Positions 8,689-63,227 of a stretch of 64,000 nt of DNA are shown in pieces. The position numbers were made by a program, and so were the translations under genes. The notes under the pieces are model-generated. The model was not told the origin of the DNA. It did no database searches and was given only the letters and a program-made list of their open reading frames with translations. Numbering within the stretch: position 1 is the stretch's first letter; every line of letters begins with the position of its first letter. Origin of the DNA: Okamejei kenojei (Eukaryota); contig CM069145.1 of the NCBI GenBank assembly GCA_035221665.1, positions 14,942,001 through 15,006,000 on the forward strand, in the 5' to 3' direction.

Positions 8689-8902
8689 AGGGCCTGTTCC
8701 ACTTGGCCGTCATTTGCGCGTCACGCAGATAGCGCGTGAAGATTTTCTGAATCCCAAAATCCTGGAACGCCGCCCGCGACCACGCATCACTGCCTACGTC
8801 ATCATGCACCATGCACGCGTAATGCACACCACGCGAGCGTCGTGATGCGTAAATGATGTTGAGTAAATGACACGCAAATGACACCCAAGTGGGACAGGCC
8901 CC
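8689..8902. mobile_element. PIF/Harbinger-type MITE
   Basis: TIR AGGGCCTGTTCCACTTGG/CCAAGTGGGACAGGCCCC, TTA TSD; removing it restores the CR1 text acaccttacacttg. Confidence 0.85.
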
Positions 8903-28365: not shown

Positions 28366-29181
28366 AGGGGCTGTCCCACTTGGGCGACCTAATTGGCGAG
28401 ATTAGAAAAGTTTGAAAAAATGACATGTTGAAGGCCTCCTTTGACTATGTAGAAGACCTCCTTCGACCTCCTTCGACTATGTTGAAGACTAACTTCGACT
28501 AGCTATGTCTAGTTACAACTAACTTCGGGAAAATTGGACACGAAATAGTGGAGAGTGAAGATGATCTCCTTCGATCTCCTTCAACCTCCCTTCGACCCCC
28601 TTCGACTATGATGAAGACTATCTACGACTACCTTTGACTACCCTCGATAACCTACGACTGACATGCCTACTACAACCTACTATGACTAATCCCTGTCCCA
28701 CTTTCATGACCTTTTTTACTCGTGGACATTTTTCATCATGCTAGAAAAAACGCCCTGACCTACCTGATGCCACAAGTACCTACGCCCCATCTACCACCTA
28801 CCTACGACCTACCTACAACCTCCTACACCCTACCTACGACCTCCTACGACCTCATGACGGCCTTGTGACGGCCATGCTGCGAGTATGAATCAAGGGCAAA
28901 CTCGGCAGATGTCGTGAATTAGGCTGTGAAAGTGAGACAAGGGCTTAAACCTGCGAGTAAAAAAAGTTTCGATTTTTTCCATGGTGACCTTTTTTTACTC
29001 GCGGGCATTTTTTAACATATTGAAAAAAACGCCGCGACCTAGCTGAGGCCTCGAGTCTGCGGAGACCACTCTCAAGCATGAAGGAGAGTTACGAAGACAT
29101 CCTACGACTTGTGTCGACCATGTTGCGAGTGTGGGTCGAGGGCAACCTCGCGGATTAGGTCGCACAAGTGGGACAGGCTCT
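28366..29181. mobile_element. PIF/Harbinger-type MITE
   Basis: TIR AGGGGCTGTCCCACTTG/CAAGTGGGACAGGCTCT, TAA TSD. Confidence 0.85.
28690..28945. mobile_element. Harbinger-type MITE nested in a MITE
   Basis: ccctgtcccactttca/tgaaagtgagacaaggg with TAA on both sides. Confidence 0.75.
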
Positions 29182-29681: not shown

Positions 29682-30413
29682 AGGGCCTTTCCCACTAATG
29701 CGACTTTTCAGCGATTGTCTTCGACCTTCAAGCTCGAGGGCACTCGACTGAAAAACCTCGAGCTGGATCGACCGTCAGCGATGAAACTGCGAGCTGGATC
29801 AACTGACCGCACACACAAACACATCGCAAAGGCGGGGGCCAGGGAAAGCGGGGGAGCGCTGTCTGAATTCACACCTGCAATGAACAGGAAGGTAAAAGAT
29901 GGCTGGCACAGTTAAGGTAAGTCCTTTAGAGAGCGCGGGGGGGGTGGGGGGGGGGAGAGAGATGACAAGGGGAGGGGGAGTGAGGGGGAGTGAAGGGGAG
30001 TGAAGGGAGTGAAAGGGAGTCAAGGGGGAGACACTTTTAAGAAGCTAAACAACTTTTAATAAAGTTTAGCAGGCATTTAATATTCCCGGTCGGATTTTCC
30101 TTGGTTCTGAAAACTCCAATGAGCCAATTAAAATACCCGGTCAGCAAAGGAGATTGCCTACAGCTACCTCGACTGCCTATAACTACATAGTGATCCCACT
30201 CCACTGCATTACGAGTTCAAAAGAACCATGCCGACCAATTTTACTCAACCAAACTGAGGCCGCGAGTATGCCGGAACTTCCCTCGAGCATGAAGGAGATT
30301 TACAATGACCTCCCAGGACCTCCTAGGACCACGTGTCGACCATGTTGCAAGTTGGAGTTGAGTGCAAACTCATCTAAACTCACAAATTAGGTCGCCGCAG
30401 TGGGACAGGCCCT
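29682..30413. mobile_element. PIF/Harbinger-type MITE
   Basis: TIR AGGGCCT(T)TCCCACT, TAA TSD; same family as 50536-51377 in the opposite orientation. Confidence 0.85.
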
Positions 30414-34644: not shown

Positions 34645-35697
34645 AGTTTGGAGACAGAGACACGGCGTGGAAACAGACCCTTTGGTCCACCGAGTCCGCG
34701 ATGACCAGTGTTCCCAGCATATTATCACTATCCTATGCACACTAGGGGCAATTTACATTTACCCAAGCCAATTAACCTACATCCCTGTACATCTTTGGAG
34801 TGTGGGAGGAAACCGAAGATCTTGGAGAAAACCCTCGCTGTCACAGGGAGAACATACAATCTCCGTACAGACAGCATTGGCCCGGGTCTCCAGCGCTGCA
34901 AACGCTGTTGAGGGCCTGTCCCACTTAGGCAATTTTTTTGGCGACTGCCGGCGACTGTCACCTTCGTAGCATGTTGCCGAAAAAGCGGTGACTGGACCAT
35001 CCCAAGACAATGTCTATGACAAGCTACAACAACCTACCTCCTAGTCGACGGCAAGCTACCAATAACCGGCAACATATTAGGATGTCCACCTACAACCACA
35101 CCTACAACAACCTACAACCACACAGGCGACAAACGGGTCTTTCAGATCATCTTTGAGAGCTTCTTGACATTTTCACCATTGATCTTACCATCGCAACATA
35201 ACCATCGCAACATAACTGTTGCTGTTTTTGTTTAGGGGCTAGGCTAATGCAGATAAATGACAACCAAAGTCAACCTACGTCCACCCGTGACAAGCTACAA
35301 CAAGCATCGACCCTGTCGGCGACAACTGAGACAACTGAACACAATTCAGTCACCGGTACCTGTCATCGGTTGACGTAGGTTGACATAGGTAGTCGCCAAT
35401 GGAATTCACCAAAATCAGCACCTGGCGACGACCAGCGTCACCCTGGCGACAACCTACGACAGCACCTACGACAGGAGAAGACAAGCTACGTCAAGCCCAC
35501 AGTCGCCGAAAAGATTTGAACATTTCAAAATCCAGCTGCGGCCAGAAAAACGTTACGACTCTTTAGGCGATTTGAGGAGACTATTCACGACTGTACAGGC
35601 GTCACCCCGCGACCATGTGGCGACAGCGTAGTCGCCGAAAAAATCGCCTACGCGGGACAGGGGCTTAAGGCAGCAACTCTACCGCTGCGCCACTTGC
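34645..35697 (-). mobile_element. HE1-like SINE interrupted by a MITE
   Basis: Body at 34645-34910, head taaggcagcaactctaccgctgcgccac at 35666-35695. Confidence 0.8.
34911..35665. mobile_element. PIF/Harbinger-type MITE with captured flank
   Basis: TIR AGGGCCTGTCCCACTTAGG/cctacgcgggacaggggct; right flank TAA. Confidence 0.85.
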
Positions 35698-38096: not shown

Positions 38097-38285
38097 AGGG
38101 CCTGTCCCACTTAGGCAATTTTTTGGGCGACTACAGGCGACTCCCGCAAAATGTTCAACACTGTTGTTCAGCAACAGTGGCGGCAATTTTTGCTGTCGTA
38201 GGTTGTCGCCAGGTATCGCAGGTGGATTCCATTAAAACTAGTCCCTGGCAGTCACCAAAAGAGTCGCCTAAGTGGGACAGGCCCA
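38097..38285. mobile_element. Short Harbinger-type MITE
   Basis: TIR GGGCCTGTCCCACTTAGGC, TTA/TAA flanks. Confidence 0.85.
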
Positions 38286-47152: not shown

Positions 47153-48482
47153 ACAGAAGCAAGGTCCCCAAGAAGAGTCGAATGGTATCAGAATGGACTG
47201 CCTAGGCTGCCGGGGAGCGGGGATACCGGCCTGCAAAATCGGCCTCGGAAGTTGGCTATGGTAACAGATCTGCTGGCTCTGGCTGGGCCGGGGTTCCAGA
47301 GCCCCTACCGCAGGGGGGCAAATTTGACCCACCGATCAACCGCGGAAGAATCGATGAGGTTGAGATGGACCACCTCACACGGCCTAGGTGCCACATTTTC
47401 GGGGGGACTTCCGGGGAAGGATTTTGTGCGCTCTGTACTTAAGTTCGGATTAAAGGAGATGCTGGACCACTAGTTGTCGGAAAGTGAATGGTGGACCTGT
47501 ATTGCAAACAGGAAATGCTAGATTCTAGTTTTGGGTAAATTTCAACTTTGTTAGCCTTGAAGTCTCACTACATTATCGAGTGACATACATTTGTTGTGTG
47601 GACTTACTTTTTGCATTTCCAGTTGCAAGCTATTTGCAGAGTTCGTCTAGAATTTGCATTAATTATTTCTGGGGACTTTTGCACTTAAAATCTCAATGGA
47701 TTGTAAAATTAAGTTATAATCACAGTTTCAACCTGCTTATGGACTTTTAGCTGTTCTAATGCAGGCATAAGGTAAACAAAAACAAATATATGTTTCTGCA
47801 TCTAGTCTTTAAAATACATATTAATTTTCTTCGTATTAGACAACCTCTGAGTCCTTGATTTATATCAATGACATTGGGAAATTTACAGAATCTTTTAAAT
47901 TGAATTGAAAACTGTATTGTCACATGTGTCAAGTCACAGTGAAATTCTTTGCTTGCAAACCCAAATTATGCAAATAATCGTCATGTAAAGGCCGCAGACA
48001 AAGTTACAATGTAAACCACACCTGGTCCGCGTTTGCTCCCCCCCCCCCCTCACTCCCAGTCGTACCCCACGCCGGGTCCTCCTTTGGCCCCCCCACCCAC
48101 CCACCCACCCAAATTAGGAATATACTAATCTTTAAAGTGTAGGAATGGGGCAGAGGAGAGGAGCAGTGAGAACAACAGGATAGTCTAGGTCGGGAATGAG
48201 ATGAAAACAAATGCTGGAAATGTCAAGAGCTAAGAGTGTCAAGAGCTTTTAATGGTCAAATGCACCAGAATGGAACAACACAATCCTTACTTGCTACTGC
48301 TTTACAGGCACATTAACACAAAAACATAACAAATAAATATAAAATAAACAATAATACAACAAAATATCAATCAAATATCAAGGTAACTGGACCACAGTAG
48401 TACAAGCCAAAGTAGGAAGAATCTCGACCCGAAACGTCACCTATTCCTCTTCCCCAGAGATGCTGCCTGACCCGCTGAGTTG

Positions 48483-49132
48483 AGGGCCTGTCCCACTTAC
48501 GTGTCCTTAGCACACAAATTACGCAACCTCATGGTCGCGTTGAGCCACACCGATCCCGCGAAGGTAACGCGCGACTTCATTCGACCGCACAGCCGTCTGG
48601 AGTGAATGACGTCATTTGAAGATGGACACAACGCTGGAGTAACTCAGCGTGAGCGGCAGCATCTCTGGAGAGAAGCAATGAGTGATGTTTCATGTCGAGA
48701 CTCTTCTTCAGTCTGAAAAGAAGGATCTTGGCCCGAAGTGTCACCCATTGCTTCTCTCCTGATATGCTGCCGGTCCCGCTGAGTTACTCCTGCATTTTGT
48801 GTATACCTTCAATTTTCTTGGCCCCGCTCTGGAAGTAGAAGTGCGGGCGGATCCGGACCGCAATGGCCGTGAGCCCCAGGCCGAGTTCGGTGATCGTTTG
48901 CCTGCTTCTGCTGCTTTTGGAGGTGAGACATTGTGTCGCGCCAGGGTCTTGGGCCTGTCCCACTTTGGCTGTCAGTTCTGCGACAGGCCATTGGCGCGCA
49001 AAGATTTTGTTCGCCCTCCGCGAGTTTCTCAGTTGGACTGGCCCCGCGCGGCCATACGATGCCTGTGCGCCTCAATGAGACCACAAGGTCACGTAATTTG
49101 CGTGCCAAGGACACGTAAGTGGGACAGTCCCT
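48483..49132. mobile_element. Composite Harbinger MITE with Penelope fold-back cargo
   Basis: TIRs, TTG/TTA flanks, internal TIR at 48951, cargo at 48618-48810. Confidence 0.85.
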
Positions 49133-49748
49133 TTACTCATGCCTTTTGTGTATGTTTTCGATGTGAACTAACATCTGCAGTTCGTCCCTACACATAATGG
49201 AACCTATACAGTCCATAGTGGATTGTTCCTAAGGTATGGTTGTGCTTACGATTTTGCAGAGTGGTTCACGAGCCCAATGGTTGAATTGAAGAATCTGTTC
49301 TTGAATGTGAAGGTGACAACTCCCAGGATCCTGTAATTTCTTCTCAATGGTAGCAGCAAGTTGAGAGAAAAATACTGGGGTGATGTTAACACCCTTCTTC
49401 ATATAGCACTTCTTGATGATCCATTTGACGGTGGGAATGTCAATACTCATGAGAGACAAGGTAGGATGCAATGTCTTACAGGCCCTGCCAAAATGTCCAT
49501 GCGATCCTCTAGTTTAGATAGGAAGTGTCTCTTTGTTTGCTCAATTCCTTCCCGTGGTCATACCTGGAATTCTTATATGGACACATCAGACTTGAATGCC
49601 GAGATCTGGTCCTCAGTAGAATACAATACGATACGATGCAATACGATATGATATGACTTAATTTTTCCCAGGAGGGAAATCCCCAGGACTGTTGTTTCTA
49701 ATAAGACAGGGAACTCCAAAAGCTGTGTCTCTGTGAAGTACAGTAAGG

Positions 49749-49873
49749 TGTAGGAAGGAACTGCAGATGTTAGTTTAAAACGAAGACAAGCAGCAACTCT
49801 GGAGAGAAGGAATGGGCCTTTCACTCCAGAAATGTTGCCTGTCCTGCTGAGCTACTCCAGCTTTTTGTGTGTT
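49749..49873. mobile_element. Fold-back Penelope-derived mini-element
   Basis: 12-bp TSD agtacagtaagg at 49737-49748 and 49874-49885. Confidence 0.7.
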
Positions 49874-50535
49874 AGTACAGTAAGGAATCAGCTGGTGGCA
49901 AAGCAATTGAACTCCTGCAGCTTTCATCCTGGATAGCTGTATTCAAAAGTCATCAAGCACCCTAAATATATAAGGAAGCTTGTTTTTCAGCAGTGTATTC
50001 TGTGTAAAAATTCTGTGTGAATATCCAGTGTCTTTCTTCTCTAGTCATGTTCAGTCTTCTGTCTTTTAGTTACAGTTCCGTAGGTTCTTTGTTTTGTTAG
50101 TTATGAAATGTTCAATTTTTAGTTGAGGTCTGCCGATATTTTAATGCTTTGCTCTGATGCCGTATAACCGTTGTGCTTGAATAAAAGTGCTTGAAAAATG
50201 GTATTACTGGACTCGGCAAATCACTCAGAATGTAATGATTTAACACTAGTCCTGTTGAAGTCCTGGCCATGATGGAGTAGGCATCGGGGCACGCCATTGG
50301 CACAGTGTGCAACTCCGCCAATGCTAACTGGATATCAGCCTCGAGCGGCACAGCTCAGCCTGAGATCAGCATGGCTGATTCTAATAAAAGGCTACCTTTT
50401 AATCCCTAAAAATCATTAATGCTGCTTCTCAACACACAATTCCTGACCAGTGTATTCTGTTTTACTTCAGGCCTCCAGTGCCGGCAGCATAGTGCTTCTG
50501 GGAGGGAAATTATCAATTGAACAAACAGCCCATTA

Positions 50536-51377
50536 AGGGGCTGTCCCACTGTGGCGACCTAATCTGCAAGTTTAGAAGAGTTTGCCCTCGCTTCAAACTC
50601 GCAGCATGGTCGACACGTGGTCCTAGGAAGTCCTATGAGGTCACTGTAACTCTCCTTCATGCTCAAGGGAAGTTCCCGTATACTCGCGACCTCAGCTAGG
50701 TCTCGGAAAAATGTTTACCTTGTTGAAAGATTTTCTGCAAGTAAAAATTTGTTGGCATGGTTCTTTTTAACTCATTGTGCAGTGGTGTGGGGTCACTATT
50801 TAGTTACAGGCAATCAAGGGCAGTCGTAGGCAATCTCCTTCGCTGACCTGACCAGGCATTTTAATTGGCTCATTGGAGTTTTCAGGACCAAGGAAAACCG
50901 ACCGGTAATGTTAAATGCCCACTAAACTTGATTGAACGTGGTCTGACCTCTTAAAAGTGTCTCCACTCCTTCTCCACCCGTTCTCTCCCCGTTCTCTCCC
51001 CCTTCTCGCCCCTTCTCTCCCCGTCTCTCCCCTTCTCCCCACTTCTCCCCCCTCTCTCCCCTTCTCTCCCCTTCTCTCCCCCCCCTCCCCCTCCTCCGCC
51101 CCTCCACGCCATCTAAAGGACTTACTGTACACTGTACACTTTTACCTTCCTCTTCATCACAGATGTGAATTCCAGACAGCGCTCCCCCTGCTTTCCCTGG
51201 CCCCCGCCTTTGCGATGTGCTTGTGTGTGTGTGTGCGCGGTCGGTCGATCCGGCTCGCGGTTTCATCACTGACGGGTCGATCCAGCTCGAGGTTTTCCAA
51301 GCGAGTGCCCTCGAGCTTGAAGGTCAAAGACACTCTTCTGCACTCACGGATTAGGTCGCCATAGTGGGACAGCCCCT
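50536..51377. mobile_element. PIF/Harbinger-type MITE
   Basis: TIR AGGGGCTGTCCCACT, TTA TSD. Confidence 0.85.
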
Positions 51378-51399
51378 TTAAGTGTTTAAGTATTTCATA

Positions 51400-51625
51400 A
51401 AGTCATAAGGTCATAAGTGATAGGATGAGAATTAGGCCATTCAGCCCATCAAGGCTACTCCACCAATCAATCATCGCTGATCTATCTCTTCCTCCTGTCC
51501 TCATTCTCCTGCCTTCTCCCCATAACCCCTCACACCTGTACTAATCAAATAATATCTATCTCTGCCTTTAAAATAACTTGGCCTCTACTGCTTTCTGTGG
51601 CAATGAATTCCACAGATCTCCATCT
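51400..51625 (-). mobile_element. CR1/HER1 3' tail
   Basis: Same tail as at 17515. Confidence 0.8.
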
Positions 51626-52084
51626 TTCAAGCTATGTTTTTGGATTATACGTTGGCTCATTAACTCTAGTGTTAATGCCAGGTGTATTATGTATACCAAA
51701 AACTAGCTGTACATATTTCACCGGATTGGAAGTTATCAGTTTGATAATTTCAGTTCCATTTACATCATCATATTAACATTTTTAGTAATCTGCAAGAGCA
51801 AGGTCCTTTGCAGACTAAAGCAATTGTGTAATTTGTTAAGCTTGACCAGAGCATATTGTTAAATCTCATGTTGTTCAAAGAGCAACTGGGATGAAACAGA
51901 CCTTATTCTATCGATCTTACTCCCACTGTTCTTCTTATACTTGGAATTCCTATTACATCATTAATTCTGATTAATACCATAGAAGGTTAATTGCATAATC
52001 ACATTATATCACTTACAGATATACTATTTAGTTTGTTGTTCTCTCACTAAATGTATACCTAAATGACCTTAAAAATCTGGATTT

Positions 52085-53328
52085 TTTTTAAGACATAACT
52101 AGGAAAATGAACAAGGGTGAGCCAGTGGACATAGTGTACCTGGACTTTCAGAAAGCATTTGATAAGGTCCCACATCAGAGATTAGTAGGCAAAATTATGG
52201 CATATGGTATTGGGGGTAGAGTGCTGACATGGATAGAGAAGTGGTTGGCAGACAGGAAACAAAAAGTAGGGATTAACGGGTCTCTTCCAGAATGGCAGGC
52301 AGTGACCAGTGGGGTACCGCAAGGCTCGGTGCTGGGATCACAGCTATTTACAATATGCATCAATGATTTGGATGAAGGGATTCAAAGTAACATTAGCAAA
52401 TTTGCAGATGACACAAAGCTGGGTGGCAGTGTGAACTGAGGAAGGATGCTATGAGAATGCAGGGTGACTTGGACAGGTTGGGGGAGTGGGCAGATGCATG
52501 GCAGATGAAATTTAATGCGGATAAATGTGAGGTTATCCACTTTGGTAGCAAAAACAGGAAGGCAGATTACTATCTAAATGGCATCAAGTTGGGAAAAGGG
52601 GAAGTACGATGGGTCTGGGGGTCCTTGTTAATCAGTCTATGAAAGTAAGCATGCAGGTACAGCAGGCAGTGAAGAAAGCGAATGGCATGTTGGCCTTTAT
52701 AACAAGAGGAATCAAATATAGGAGCAAAGAGGTCCTTCTGCAGTTGTACAGAGCCCTAGTGAGACCACACCTGGAGTATTGCGTGCAGTTTTGGTCACCT
52801 AATTTGAGAAGGACATTCTTGCTATCGAGGGAGTGCAGCCTAGGTTTACAAAGTTAATCCCCGGGATGGCGGGACTGTCATATGCTGAGAGAATGGAGCA
52901 GCTGGGCCTGAACACTCTGGGGTTTAGAAGGATGAGAGGGGATCTCATTGAAACATATGTTTATTAAGGGTTTGGACACGCTAGAGGCAGGAAACATGTT
53001 CCCGATGTTGGGGGAGTTCAGAACCAGGGGCCACAGTTTAAGAATAAGGAGTAAGCCATTTAGAACGGAGACGAGGAAACACTTTTTCTCACAGAGTGGT
53101 GAGTCTGTGGAATTCTCTGCCTCAGAGGGTGGTGGAGGCAGGTTCTCTGGATGCTCTCAAGAGAGTGCTAGATAGGGCTCTTAAAAATAGCAGAGTCAGG
53201 GGATATGGGGAGAAGGCAGGAATGGGGTACTGATTGGGGATGATCAGCCATGATCACATTGAATGGCGGTGCTGGCTTGAAGGGCCGAATGGCCTACTCC
53301 TGAACCTATTGTCCATTGTCTATTGTCT
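52085..53328 (+). mobile_element. CR1/HER1 LINE 3' part (RT pseudogene)
   Basis: [14 protein letters not shown]...GVPQGSVLG...[10 protein letters not shown] through to the (attgtct)n tail. Confidence 0.95.
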
Positions 53329-53919
53329 AAAAATTTAAGTTGCAATTAAAATATTTTTAATGTCATTGCTAATTTTCAGTAAAACATTGTGCTATTGTTC
53401 CTGTGAACATGTTGGACTATTAACGAAATAACAGAATGTAGTCGTTAGAATATAACATAATCACATTATGCAATGTGATCATGCGATCAACAGTCGGAAT
53501 TGAAATTATTAATTGTCATTTTTGCAGTCATTCGTTTCATTCTTGCTCTGCTTATGAGCGGAAAAGAAAGTAATTAGTTAAGTATGTTAAATTCACTCAG
53601 CTGCGGAAGAAAAGATACATTCTCTCAAATGCAAAGTGAAAGGTGGTTAATTATGGAAATAAATTGGAAGCATGTGCCTCTTAAACACCACTATCGTAAC
53701 TTCCTCCATGACCTCACTGACAGCGCATTCCAGCTACTCACCGCCCCCCGTATAAACAAGTTTCCTGCACATCTTCCAGCAAGCAAATGGAACTTTATAG
53801 AACTATTGGCATCATTGAGATTAGATCGGTGGTCCGGTTTTCCCAACTCATGTTGCCTGTGTTTCTGTCCTTCAGTTACTTTGTGTTAATTCCTTGAACT
53901 GGCATATAATCTTTGTCAA

Positions 53920-54420
53920 AGATAGACTCAAAAAGCTGGGGTAAGATTTGGACGCATCTGCGGAGGAAAGCAATAGGTGACGTTTCGGGTCGAGACCCTT
54001 CTTCAGACTGAGAGCCAGCGGAGAAGGAACCAAGAGACATGAACAGGTGGATGGAAGAAATTAATGAAAGATTTGCAAAGAGACAGATCAAAGCCAGCAA
54101 TGATTATCAAGGAAAGGTGGAGCCCACAATGTTGGCTGTGGGGGAAGGTGAATACAAGTGATAAAAACAGTGAAACTCAGCGGGACGACAGTGAAACCAG
54201 TATGATGGTTAGGGTGGGGGAGGGACGAAGAGAGAGGGAATGCAAGGGTTACTTGAAGTTAGAAAAATCAAGATTCACACCGCTGTGGTGTAAGCTGCCC
54301 AAACAAAATATGCTGTTTTTTTGTTGTGAAGGAAGGTGCTGTTCCTGCAAGGTGCATTTGGCCTCACTCTGACAATGGATGAGGCCCAGGACAGAAAGGT
54401 CAGAATGGAAATGGGAGGTG
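53920..54420 (-). mobile_element. Penelope-like fragment (endonuclease C-terminus plus terminal repeat)
   Basis: - strand DLSVLGLIHCQSEAK and LGSLH..GVNLDFSNFK*, then the terminal repeat. Confidence 0.75.
53975..54010 (-). ncRNA. Minimal hammerhead-ribozyme-like core in a Penelope terminus
   Basis: CUGAAGA-A-GGGUC/GACCC-GAAA-CGUC; stem I only about 2 bp. Confidence 0.45.
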
Positions 54421-54586
54421 GCCTGTTACAAAAGCCAGCAAAACTAACGATGAAGGACAATTTTCTCAATTCTATTGATACTTTGCAAAAACAAATTAAC
54501 CCTTCCGAAGAAGTGTGAAGAAGGGTCTCGACCCAAAATGTCAACTATTCCTTTTCTCCAGAGATGCAGTCTGACCCGCTGAGTTA

Positions 54587-55233
54587 AGGGCCTGTCCCAT
54601 TTGGCTGTCTTTCGCGCGGCATTTACACGACCTGCTAGCGTGTGAGTAGCGTGTGGGTAGCGCGGGATGGGCGCACGGAGTGGTGTGGAGGAGTGTGGAG
54701 TGGCATGGAGTAGGGAGGACTTCGTCCTGCACAAAATCTTCGCGTGCCACCGGCCTGTCGCGTAACTGACGGCCAAAGTGGGACAGGCCCAAGACCCTGG
54801 CGCGACGCATCGTCTCGCCTCCAACAGCAGCAGAAGCAGGCAAACGATCGCTGAGCTCGGCCTGGGGCTATGGCCGTTGCGGATCCGGATCTGCCCCCAC
54901 TCCTACTCCCAGAGCAGGGCCAAGATTATTGGAGATAGACACAAAATGCAGGAGTAACTCAACAGGACTGGCAGCATCTCTGGAGAGAAGCAATAGGTGA
55001 TGTTTCGGGTCAAGATCCTTCTTTCAGACTGAAAAAGAGTCTCGCCCCGAAACATCATCCATTCCTTCTCTTCAGAGATGCTGCCGGTCCCGCTGAGTTA
55101 CTCCTGCATTTTGTGTCTATCTTCAAATGACGTCACGCGCTCCAGATGGCTGTGCGGGCGCATGATGACGCGCGCGACTCTCGCGCGACTACCGGCCTGT
55201 CGCGTAAGTGACAGCCTAAGTGGGACAGACCCT
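54587..55233. mobile_element. Composite Harbinger MITE with Penelope fold-back cargo
   Basis: TIRs, TTA TSD, internal TIR ending at 54790, cargo at 54931-55124. Confidence 0.85.
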
Positions 55234-55345
55234 TTACTCCAGCCTTTCAACCCATCAGGTCCATGCCGATCTTTTTGTCCATCTACACTGATTTCTACTG
55301 CCACATGATCATATCCTTTTCTACATTGCGACTTTAAACTTTAAT

Positions 55346-55489
55346 GGGTACACAAAAGGCTGGAGAAACCCAGCGGGTGCGGCAGCATCTAAGGAGCGAA
55401 GGAGATAGGCGACGTTTTGGGTCGAGACCCTTCTTCAGTCTTTTGTGTACCCTCGATTCTCCAGCATCTGCAGTTCCTTCTTTTTTACT
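55346..55489. mobile_element. Penelope-derived mini-element
   Basis: 13-bp TSD tttaaactttaat at 55333-55345 and 55490-55502. Confidence 0.7.
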
Positions 55490-55502
55490 TTTAAACTTTA
55501 AT

Positions 55503-55742
55503 AACACAGCTTGGGAAACAGGCCCTTCAGGCCACCGATTCCACGCCGAACAGCGATCACCCCTTATACGGACACTATCATACAACCTAGCGACAATTTC
55601 CAGAGGTCAATTAGCTTACACACCTGTACTTCTTTGGAGTGTGGGAGAAAACTGTAGAAAACAGACAGCACCCATTGTCAGGATTGAACCCGGGTCTCTG
55701 GCACTGTAAGGCAGCAACTCTACTGCCACACCACTGTGCCGC
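55503..55742 (-). mobile_element. HE1-like SINE
   Basis: Head and body with an internal deletion. Confidence 0.8.
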
Positions 55743-55949
55743 CCCTTGCCTATTTGTGTCTGTGTACATACCTCTTAAACGTAATAATTGTATCTGATTC
55801 CACCACCTCCTCTGGCAGTACACTCAGATATCAATCATTATGTGATGCAGATAACACTATGATTATGCAGATATCAATCACTGTCTGTGTGACCATTGAG
55901 GCCAATGTGGGATCTGCTACAGATGGGGCAGGAGGTAAACATTTTTTTA

Positions 55950-56250
55950 GCATAGTGATACAACACGGAAACAGGACCTTCGTCTCATCGGGTCCGCACC
56001 GACCAGCGATCCCCGCACATTAACACTACCCTACCCACAGTCGGGACAATTTTACATTTATACCAAGCCAATCAACCTACAAACTTGTACGTCTTTAGAT
56101 TGTGGGATAAAACCGTAGATCTCGGAGAAAACCCGCGCAGGTCACGGGGAGAAGGTACAAACTATGTATGGACAAGCACCTGTAGTCAGGAACGAACCCT
56201 GGTCTCGGCGCTGTAAAGCTGTAGTTCTACCACTGCGCCACTGTGCCGCT
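55950..56250 (-). mobile_element. HE1-like SINE
   Basis: Full body. Confidence 0.85.
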
Positions 56251-56803
56251 GTTTGATGGGACAGCAGGTCGGAAGTTTTGGAGATGGTCTGCTCTTATCA
56301 TTGGTTTTATTCTGGCAAGAGTGCACCACGGTTCTCAGTGTCAGGCCAATGCACCTGCTCCTTTGTGAGCAGACATGAGCCAAAGATTCCAGAAGTCATT
56401 GGGAATGTTACAATTTTTCAAAGAACTGCAAAAATAAGCCCCGTGATAACAATTCAACAGGAAATGGGAAAAGACATGCAAACTGACACGGATGGCAACA
56501 TTGTTCCGTAGAAAAAAGAGATGAGTTTATTTGGTCACCTTGAAGCAATGGTCATTAGCACAACAGTTTTTATTCAAGCCTGCTTTCATTTCTAAATGGC
56601 AGATTTTTGAAGCTGATTGCCAGCTTTTCAATCTTTCATAGTTTGGCATTAATATCTCCATCTTGTGTGGGTGGGAATTTGTTGTTTCTTTTTCCTCTGT
56701 ATTAAAACCCATTTCTTTGCCATCTGCTTAACTGGTTTTGGATTCTTCTCAGTAGGTTTTATTTCCATTTTATTTTCCCCTGGGCACCACGTTTGGTACT
56801 CAC

Positions 56804-62770: not shown

Positions 62771-63227
62771 AGGGCCTGTCCCACTAGGCGACTGCCGGCG
62801 ACTGACATAGTTGTAGCACGTCGCCGAAAAACTGGCGACTGGACTAATGGGCCTGTCCCACTTAGGTGATATTTTTAGGCGACTGTCGGCGACTACGACA
62901 ATGGAATACACCAAAGTCAGCACTGGTGACAACCTACGTCACCTGCCGACAACCTACATCATCCTGGCAACAACCTACGCCATCCTGGCGACAACCTAGG
63001 GCAACCTACGATAGCATCTCCATCAGGAGAAGGCACGCTACGGCAAGCCCACGGTCGCTGACTGTCACCATAACGTTTTGAACATTTCAAAATCCAGTGG
63101 CGACCAGAAAAACGCTACGAGTCTTTGGGCGACTGAGGAGACTACTCACGACCATACAGGCGACACCCTGGCGACTGTGTGGCAACAGCCTAGTCGCCTA
63201 AAAAATCGCCTAAGTGGGACAGGCCCA
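62771..63227. mobile_element. Harbinger MITE (62848-63227) abutting an orphan left end (62771-62844)
   Basis: Inner TIR TGGGCCTGTCCCACTTAGG with TAA TSD; outer end resembles the start of 34911. Confidence 0.8.

What the first reader, a model, noticed from the sequence alone, without database searches (positions are those of the whole stretch)
48420..55245. Two composite Harbinger MITEs carry the repeat they insert into, at the identical target base
Seen: elements 48483-49132 and 54587-55233 both interrupt a Penelope terminal repeat at gacccgctgag|TTA|ctc, in opposite orientations and with different outer flanks and sub-terminal sequences, so they look independent. Each carries a ~193-bp fold-back dimer of that same repeat (48618-48810; 54931-55124) containing two GAGTTACTC target motifs. 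Known: Harbinger makes 3-bp TWA TSDs and can have strong palindromic target preference; GAG-TTA-CTC is palindromic around the TSD. Inference: either plain sequence preference in an abundant repeat, or homology-associated targeting in which the cargo matches the landing site. Two events is a very small sample.
Basis: partly seen in the sequence, partly recalled or inferred. Interest (0 to 1): 0.75.

Follow-up and report, generated by a model that had tools for sequence, protein, structure and literature searches.

The report
Harbinger MITEs hit a common repeat
Both small jumping elements do sit at the same base of a repeat they also carry, but a related family that carries nothing lands there about as often, so this is likely ordinary sequence preference in a very common repeat, not guidance by the cargo.

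Summary
Both ~650-bp elements belong to high-copy Harbinger MITE families (roughly 2,700 and 900 copies, estimated) that share one core holding a fold-back piece of a Penelope-like terminal repeat. Homology targeting is not supported. Whole-genome exact counts of ends at this site: cargo family E1 26/1204 (2.2%), cargo family E2 3/204 (1.5%), a cargo-less family 42/2286 (1.8%), all ends 631/43,389 (1.5%). E1 versus cargo-less OR 1.18 (0.69-1.98). A mismatch-tolerant sample gave 7/140 versus 6/85. The site is about 9-fold over-used, and a target matrix trained on other sites (W-G-A/C-S|TWA) predicts most of this (1.1% versus 1.5%). Against this reading, E1 versus all other ends gives OR 1.5, p=0.049. 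About 0.4-0.8 such same-window pairs are expected genome-wide by chance. Side result: a Tx1-like LINE sits at one fixed base of this MITE core in 5 copies from both families, likely by site-specific insertion, as reported for alligator Tx1-9_AMi.

The parts
48410..48479 (+). Left piece of the interrupted Penelope-like 3' terminal repeat (host of E1), ending ...CCCGCTGAG
   Evidence: repeat tied to an RT + GIY-YIG element in L217
48480..48482 (+). Left target-site duplication of E1 (TTG; one mismatch to TTA)
48483..49132 (+). E1: non-autonomous Harbinger MITE, E1-type ends with ~75-bp inverted termini; family estimated at ~2,700 copies
48618..48810 (.). E1 cargo: fold-back dimer of the Penelope-like terminal repeat, two target motifs at 48637 and 48781
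48819..48829 (+). Empty site (TGGCCCCGCTC) that is duplicated around a Tx1-like LINE in other copies of this MITE; no LINE here
48950..48965 (+). Internal TIR-like motif of the shared core (no TWA beside it)
49133..49135 (+). Right target-site duplication of E1 (TTA)
49136..49193 (+). Right piece of the interrupted repeat (host of E1)
54511..54583 (+). Left piece of the interrupted Penelope-like terminal repeat (host of E2)
54584..54586 (+). Left target-site duplication of E2 (TTA)
54587..55233 (-). E2: non-autonomous Harbinger MITE, same core as E1 in opposite orientation, different ends; family estimated at ~900 copies
54776..54791 (-). Internal TIR-like motif of E2
54912..54922 (-). Empty LINE target site in E2 (one mismatch to the E1 version)
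54931..55124 (.). E2 cargo: fold-back dimer, target motifs at 54952 and 55095
55234..55243 (+). Right target-site duplication of E2 (TTA) and short right piece of the host repeat (CTCCAGC)

Best explanation
E1 and E2 are two non-autonomous Harbinger MITE families, likely moved by a Harbinger transposase in trans, that land on this repeat because its GAG-TTA-CTC matches the extended palindromic target that cargo-bearing and cargo-less families with these ends share; the cargo is likely a passenger. Shown: the target preference (S at -4 77%, G at -6 35%, A at -7 48% outside this site); similar site use with and without cargo; the abundance of the site (0.8% of TWAs sampled); the shared core; transposase-coding elements with the same 13-bp terminus. 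Inferred: the fold-back was picked up once into a deleted Harbinger and amplified under two sets of ends; the partner is one of the DDE_Tnp_4 families found; the pair in this window is a chance neighbour pair among roughly 200 site-inserted cargo copies.
For: Whole-genome exact counts: all ends 631/43,389; E1 26/1204; E2 right ends 3/204; cargo-less GTAC family 42/2286 (0 of 30 such site copies held cargo). E1 vs GTAC OR 1.18, CI 0.69-1.98, p=0.52; E1+E2 vs GTAC OR 1.12, CI 0.67-1.86. 25 of the first 30 site insertions have non-E1 ends. Mismatch-tolerant, both flanks: E1 5/89, E2 2/51, GTAC 6/85; p=0.56. A matrix from 344 non-site half-sites predicts 3.4-4.8% of insertions at this site (observed 13/225 = 5.8%) and 1.14% for the exact flank (observed 1.45%). 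Non-E1/E2 ends show the same logo. Extended 9-15 bp Harbinger preference is established (PMC2836001; PMC3016246).
Against: E1 vs all other ends pooled: OR 1.52, CI 0.98-2.26, p=0.049. GTAC also lies above the remaining pool (OR 1.31, p=0.10), so family differences could explain this, but only one cargo-less family was counted genome-wide. GTAC is not younger than E1, so age does not obviously explain it. The confidence interval allows up to about 2-fold. Exact counts used only one of the two flanks. The E2 count is 3. The matrix leaves about a fifth to two fifths of site use unexplained, and its background came from DNA near elements, not random DNA. In the BLAST-ranked samples 4 of 29 E1 and 2 of 29 E2 copies were at the site; these samples may favour such copies.
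Confidence: 0.92

Rival explanations
1. Weak homology-assisted targeting: the cargo (as DNA or hairpin RNA) tethers the transpososome near homologous repeat copies and adds up to about 2-fold on top of sequence preference.
For: E1 2.16% vs 1.43% for all other ends, p=0.049; upper CI vs GTAC 1.98; cargo is a very stable fold-back.
Against: E2 1.47% equals the genome average; GTAC 1.84% without cargo; mismatch-tolerant sample 7/140 vs 6/85; insertions elsewhere in the repeat are not raised (in-repeat at any position: E1 6/89, E2 4/51, GTAC 7/85). No such mechanism turned up in searches.
Confidence: 0.04
2. The two loci derive from one duplication or inversion.
For: Shared 85% core in inverted orientation 6 kb apart.
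Against: Different ends belonging to two genome-wide families; each has its own TSD; the flanks share only short repeat matches; host repeats face the same way while the elements are opposite.
Confidence: 0.01
3. A TIR-like word in the repeat just upstream of the site (CCTGTCCC.CT) recruits the transposition proteins and makes the site hot for all families.
For: The word resembles the TIR (seen); the matrix leaves a small residual.
Against: The TIR-like variant is not enriched in occupied versus free sites: 24:17 vs 45:38, OR 1.19, p=0.70.
Confidence: 0.03

Closest known systems
PIF/Harbinger Tourist-like MITEs (mPing, mPIF; Harbinger3N_DR)
   Same: Short non-coding elements with TIRs, 3-bp TSD and an extended palindromic target preference (9 bp in plants, 15 bp in vertebrates; PMC2836001 passages; AAACACCWGGTCTTT for Harbinger3_DR, PMC3016246 passage).
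   Different: Here the preference is W-G-(A/C)-S|TWA|S and is looser than that of Harbinger3_DR; the elements are ~650 bp and carry a Penelope-derived fold-back.
Penelope-like elements with pLTR minimal hammerheads (Cervera and De la Pena 2014, PMC4209133)
   Same: The repeat follows an RT + GIY-YIG frame in L217 and follows GIY-YIG-like fragments in several other loci, with a CTGAAGA...GAAAC core and an inverted partner; the paper notes opposite-strand pairs 100-700 bp apart.
   Different: The cargo is a tight fold-back of the terminal repeat only, inside a DNA transposon. Rfam gave no hammerhead hit and cleavage was not tested.
Tx1-9_AMi (alligator), Tx1L/Tx1D (Xenopus), Tx1-Mar (Kojima 2015, PMC4494074), for the side finding
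   Same: A Tx1-type LINE inserting at a fixed place in a non-autonomous DNA transposon; Tx1-9_AMi inserts ~300 bp from the 5' end of three Harbinger families, and this LINE 346 bp from the E1 left end.
   Different: Different host lineage. The target sequence could not be compared (supplement unavailable), and the clade was not tested by an RT tree.

Membership tests
PIF/Harbinger MITE | 3-bp TWA target-site duplication | tested here: met
   E2 TTA/TTA, E1 TTG/TTA; TWA on both sides of most family copies
PIF/Harbinger MITE | Terminal inverted repeats, no coding capacity | tested here: met
   TIRs shown; the 650-bp interior is core plus cargo. No ORF scan was run on E1 or E2 themselves.
PIF/Harbinger MITE | Related Harbinger transposase (DDE_Tnp_4) element with shared ends | tested here: met
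   6 of 20 fetched transposase loci form a ~2.4-kb family ending ...TGGGACAGGCCCT|TWA, with a sub-terminal region alignable to E1's right end; Pfam PF13359 E 4e-31 and 6e-35. L215 has an E2-like left end and 29 bp at 93% to the core just before a transposase frame.
PIF/Harbinger MITE | Myb/SANT second ORF in the autonomous partner | not tested
   No Myb/SANT search was run; the 2.4-kb elements showed one long ORF within their bounds
PIF/Harbinger MITE | Extended palindromic target preference | tested here: met
Penelope-like element terminal repeat (host and cargo) | Repeat lies 3' of an RT + GIY-YIG ORF | tested here: met
   L217: RT region (tblastn 4e-51 to the L434 RT/GIY-YIG protein), GIY-YIG region (1e-18), repeat ~260 bp downstream. 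Pfam hits on L217 are below curated cut-offs (RVT_1 0.007, GIY-YIG 3e-4).
Penelope-like element terminal repeat (host and cargo) | Minimal hammerhead ribozyme in the repeat | tested here: inconclusive
   Core-like CTGAAGA-stem-GAAAC visible in L217 (motif recalled); no Rfam hammerhead hit
Homology-guided transposition (cargo picks target) | Cargo-bearing elements enriched at cargo-homologous sites over cargo-less kin | tested here: not met
   OR 1.12 (0.67-1.86) exact; 7/140 vs 6/85 mismatch-tolerant
Tx1-clade site-specific LINE (side finding) | ORF1 with CCHC knuckle; ORF2 APE-RT-zinc finger; poly(A) tail; TSD | tested here: met
   Pfam zf-CCHC (weak, 0.002), Exo_endo_phos 4e-15, RVT_1 1e-24, zf-RVT 9e-5; AATAAA plus poly(A), and ~11-bp TSD seen where both junctions are held
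Tx1-clade site-specific LINE (side finding) | Repeated independent insertion at one target | tested here: inconclusive
   5 of 6 held copies at the same base; carriers do not group together and carry E1- or E2-diagnostic bases.
Tx1-clade site-specific LINE (side finding) | Placement in the Tx1 clade by RT phylogeny | not tested
   Homologs are fish and shark APE-RT proteins with no clade name given

The most novel reading that the evidence does not exclude
A eukaryotic cut-and-paste MITE whose captured fold-back cargo biases insertion toward homologous genomic repeats, adding up to about 2-fold on top of the transposase's sequence preference. The E1 excess over pooled ends (OR 1.5) would be its trace.
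Probability: 0.04. Interest if true: 0.75.

Novelty: new member of a known kind. Interest (0 to 1): 0.2.

Why it matters
As found, it is an ordinary case: an abundant retrotransposon remnant happens to contain a near-ideal Harbinger target and takes about 6% of insertions from the families sampled, with or without cargo. It is a worked caution against reading homology into nested repeats. Cargo-guided targeting by a eukaryotic DDE transposon would be new and useful, but the counts argue against it. The side result, a LINE that appears to target one base of these MITEs, adds a likely second Harbinger-targeting Tx1-type family besides alligator Tx1-9_AMi and gives a testable endonuclease-target pair.

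Tried and rejected
Homology targeting: rejected by family counts. Duplication of one locus: rejected. TIR-like word in the repeat as recruiter: no enrichment. Rfam scan of 48300-56300: only sub-threshold miRNA hairpin matches. The top GIY-YIG hits belong to another, tandem Penelope-like family; only 3 of those 30 loci held the repeat nearby, so the link was made through L217 instead. Search for a cargo-less progenitor with the two core halves joined: none among 165 left-core and 160 right-core hits in 1.59 Mb held. The apparently cargo-less copies were mostly LINE-bearing, truncated or interrupted. The long 5-7 kb copies were first taken for autonomous Harbingers but hold a LINE and no transposase. 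One search had an offset in two reference flanks; reran it corrected, with the same counts. Earlier-findings look-ups returned nothing. The supplement of PMC4494074 could not be read; it bears on whether the LINE target resembles that of Tx1-9_AMi.
Full report
OBSERVATION. E1 (48483-49132) and E2 (54587-55233) have AGGG(C/T)CTGTCCCA(C/T)TT termini and interrupt the same repeat at GCTGAG|TWA|CTC; E1's duplication reads TTG/TTA and E2's TTA/TTA. They share a core (85% over 294 bp, inverted) with a ~193-bp fold-back, two target motifs each and an internal TIR-like motif, but have different ends. The E2 cargo folds at -139.5 kcal/mol, z -19.9. One-kb flanks share only four short matches of 48-75 bp, so these are two insertions, not one duplication.

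WHAT THE PARTS ARE. The window lies in a 2.76-Gb genome. The core is high-copy: 8,193 first-look candidates for the E1 core and 10,518 for whole E2. E1 and E2 each represent a dispersed family. From exact end counts and the share of elements with both ends exact (11 pairs in 100 listed ends), I estimate about 2,700 E1 and 900 E2 copies. Among 20 fetched transposase loci (of 155 PF13359 matches), six form a 2.4-kb family with the same 13-bp terminus, TWA flanks and a sub-terminal region alignable to E1's right end. Another, L215, has an E2-like left end and a 29-bp match to the core just before its transposase frame. The repeat is the 3' terminal repeat of a Penelope-like element: in L217 an RT region and a GIY-YIG region precede it by ~260 bp, followed by an inverted copy, and GIY-YIG-like fragments lie within 500 bp of it in six more loci. 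The Pfam scores on L217 are below cut-off. A hammerhead-like core is visible (motif recalled; PMC4209133, first quarter of text and passages read), but Rfam gave no hit. A pattern for the fold-back centre also matched 18 places outside the MITE core among 56 in held DNA, some of them true free fold-backs. In 161 of 165 left-core hits the cargo follows directly and no empty progenitor was found, so one capture, later amplified under two sets of ends, is the simplest inference.

THE TEST. Whole-genome exact counts of TIR ends preceded by TWA, and of those preceded by GCTGAGTTA: all families 631/43,389 = 1.45%; E1-type ends 26/1204 = 2.16% (78 of 89 sampled E1 ends showed cargo within reach); E2 right ends 3/204 = 1.47%; cargo-less GTAC family 42/2286 = 1.84% (none of 30 checked held cargo). 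E1 vs GTAC OR 1.18 (0.69-1.98, p 0.52); E1+E2 vs GTAC OR 1.12 (0.67-1.86). Against my reading, E1 vs all other ends gives OR 1.52 (0.98-2.26, p 0.049). GTAC vs the remainder is 1.31 (p 0.10), and GTAC is not younger than E1. Of the first 30 site insertions, 25 had non-E1 ends.

For a mismatch-tolerant check of both flanks I took consecutive rows of the listings: 89 E1 ends of the first 100 rows (12 left out: paired ends and the last row; two elements remain counted twice), 85 GTAC elements up to C1:127.9 Mb (four later rows, one at the site, left out; two share duplicated flanks) and the first 51 E2 rows. At the site: 5/89, 2/51 and 6/85; cargo 7/140 vs 6/85, p 0.56. One borderline E2 (L226) scored just under threshold and one counted E2 (L399) is offset by 4 bp. 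The BLAST-ranked samples gave 4/29 and 2/29 but may be biased toward copies with matching flanks.

WHY THE SITE IS HOT. From 344 half-sites outside the repeat the preference is C/G at -4 (77%), A/C at -5, G at -6 (35%) and A at -7 (48%); non-E1/E2 families show the same pattern. GAG-TTA-CTC fits it on both sides. The site makes up 0.79% of 15,202 TWAs in 444 kb of background. The matrix predicts 3.4-4.8% of insertions there against 5.8% seen (13/225), and 1.14% against 1.45% for the exact flank, whose raw enrichment is 9-fold. The background is DNA near elements, so these figures are approximate. A TIR-like word beside the site adds nothing detectable. With about 180-260 cargo copies on the site genome-wide, 0.4-0.8 same-window pairs and 0.08-0.15 pairs within 6.2 kb are expected under uniform spacing; the finding was picked after the fact from many windows.

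COMPARISON WITH WHAT IS KNOWN. Extended 9-15 bp preference encoded by the element proteins is a described Harbinger trait (PMC2836001 and PMC3016246, passages read). Four searches of the held library (listings only, apart from the papers named) showed no report of cargo-guided Harbinger targeting or of these families; the library lacks Repbase and most subscription papers.

SIDE FINDING. Five sampled copies are several kb long because a LINE sits at one base of the core, 346 bp from E1's left end, with an ~11-bp duplication where both junctions are held. All 6 close copies of this LINE in the DNA held are inside these MITEs, 5 at that base; the held DNA is enriched for MITEs. Carriers are closer to LINE-less copies than to each other. 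Right of the site, three carry 14 of 15 E1-diagnostic bases and one carries 13 of 15 E2-diagnostic bases, which favours repeated site-specific insertion over spread of one composite. The closest named protein is from a shark, 63% identical. Kojima 2015 (PMC4494074, passages and section 15 read; supplement not available) reports Tx1-9_AMi inserting ~300 bp inside three Harbinger families, so this would be a new member of a known kind. Clade and genome-wide specificity were not tested.

VERDICT. A real feature with an ordinary cause: sequence preference plus an abundant, well-matching repeat (0.92). A small cargo effect is not excluded (0.04). Interest 0.2.

Noticed in passing
L444 (G000:C1:42674103-42681345), L445, L446 (C1:99619768-99624946), L451, L448 (C2, E2-ended); empty site at window 48819-48829: A ~6.5-kb LINE (CCHC ORF1; APE-RT-zf ORF2; poly(A); ~11-bp TSD) sits at the same base of the MITE core in 5 copies, antisense to E1's + strand. 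Both junctions are held for L444, L446 and L448, the 3' junction only for L451, the 5' only for L445. Carriers are nearer to LINE-less copies than to each other, and L448 has E2-diagnostic bases, so the insertions look independent. A sixth, 591-bp 3' fragment (L389) is in the core with its 3' junction about 85 bp away. Likely a site-specific Tx1-type LINE, like Tx1-9_AMi.
   Followed up: partly
G000:C43:10193, 16520, 22868, 29304; also near the ends of C11, C17, C21, C111: A different RT + GIY-YIG (Penelope-like) element with long open frames (up to 759 aa) lies in ~6.3-kb tandem arrays at contig ends, possibly subtelomeric arrays.
   Followed up: no
L204:4035-6474 and L202, L210, L218, L219, L220: A ~2.4-kb Harbinger family (94-96% identical copies) with a 409-470 aa transposase frame, imperfect left TIR and no second long ORF inside; possibly a transposase-only element needing a Myb partner in trans.
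   Followed up: partly
L253:1509-2089: An E2 copy at the repeat site whose cargo target motif is itself joined to a second E2 left end: likely a nested insertion into the cargo followed by deletion.
   Followed up: partly
L174; L210:7254-7708: A chimera with one E1 end and one E2 end, and a 455-bp E2-like element with only one cargo arm and another linker: ends and core have been shuffled.
   Followed up: no
L447 (G000:C1:48501677-48504644): An unrelated RT-coding insertion begins within 2 bp of the LINE site in an E1 copy.
   Followed up: no
window 8689-8902, 28366-29181, 29682-30413, 38097-38285, 50536-51377, 62771-63227: Six cargo-less Harbinger MITEs with the same TIR, none at the repeat site. 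A further left TIR at 34911 had no right end found.
   Followed up: yes
window about 52090-53310: By eye, a decayed LINE RT fragment of CR1/L2 type between E1 and E2 (label recalled, not tested).
   Followed up: no
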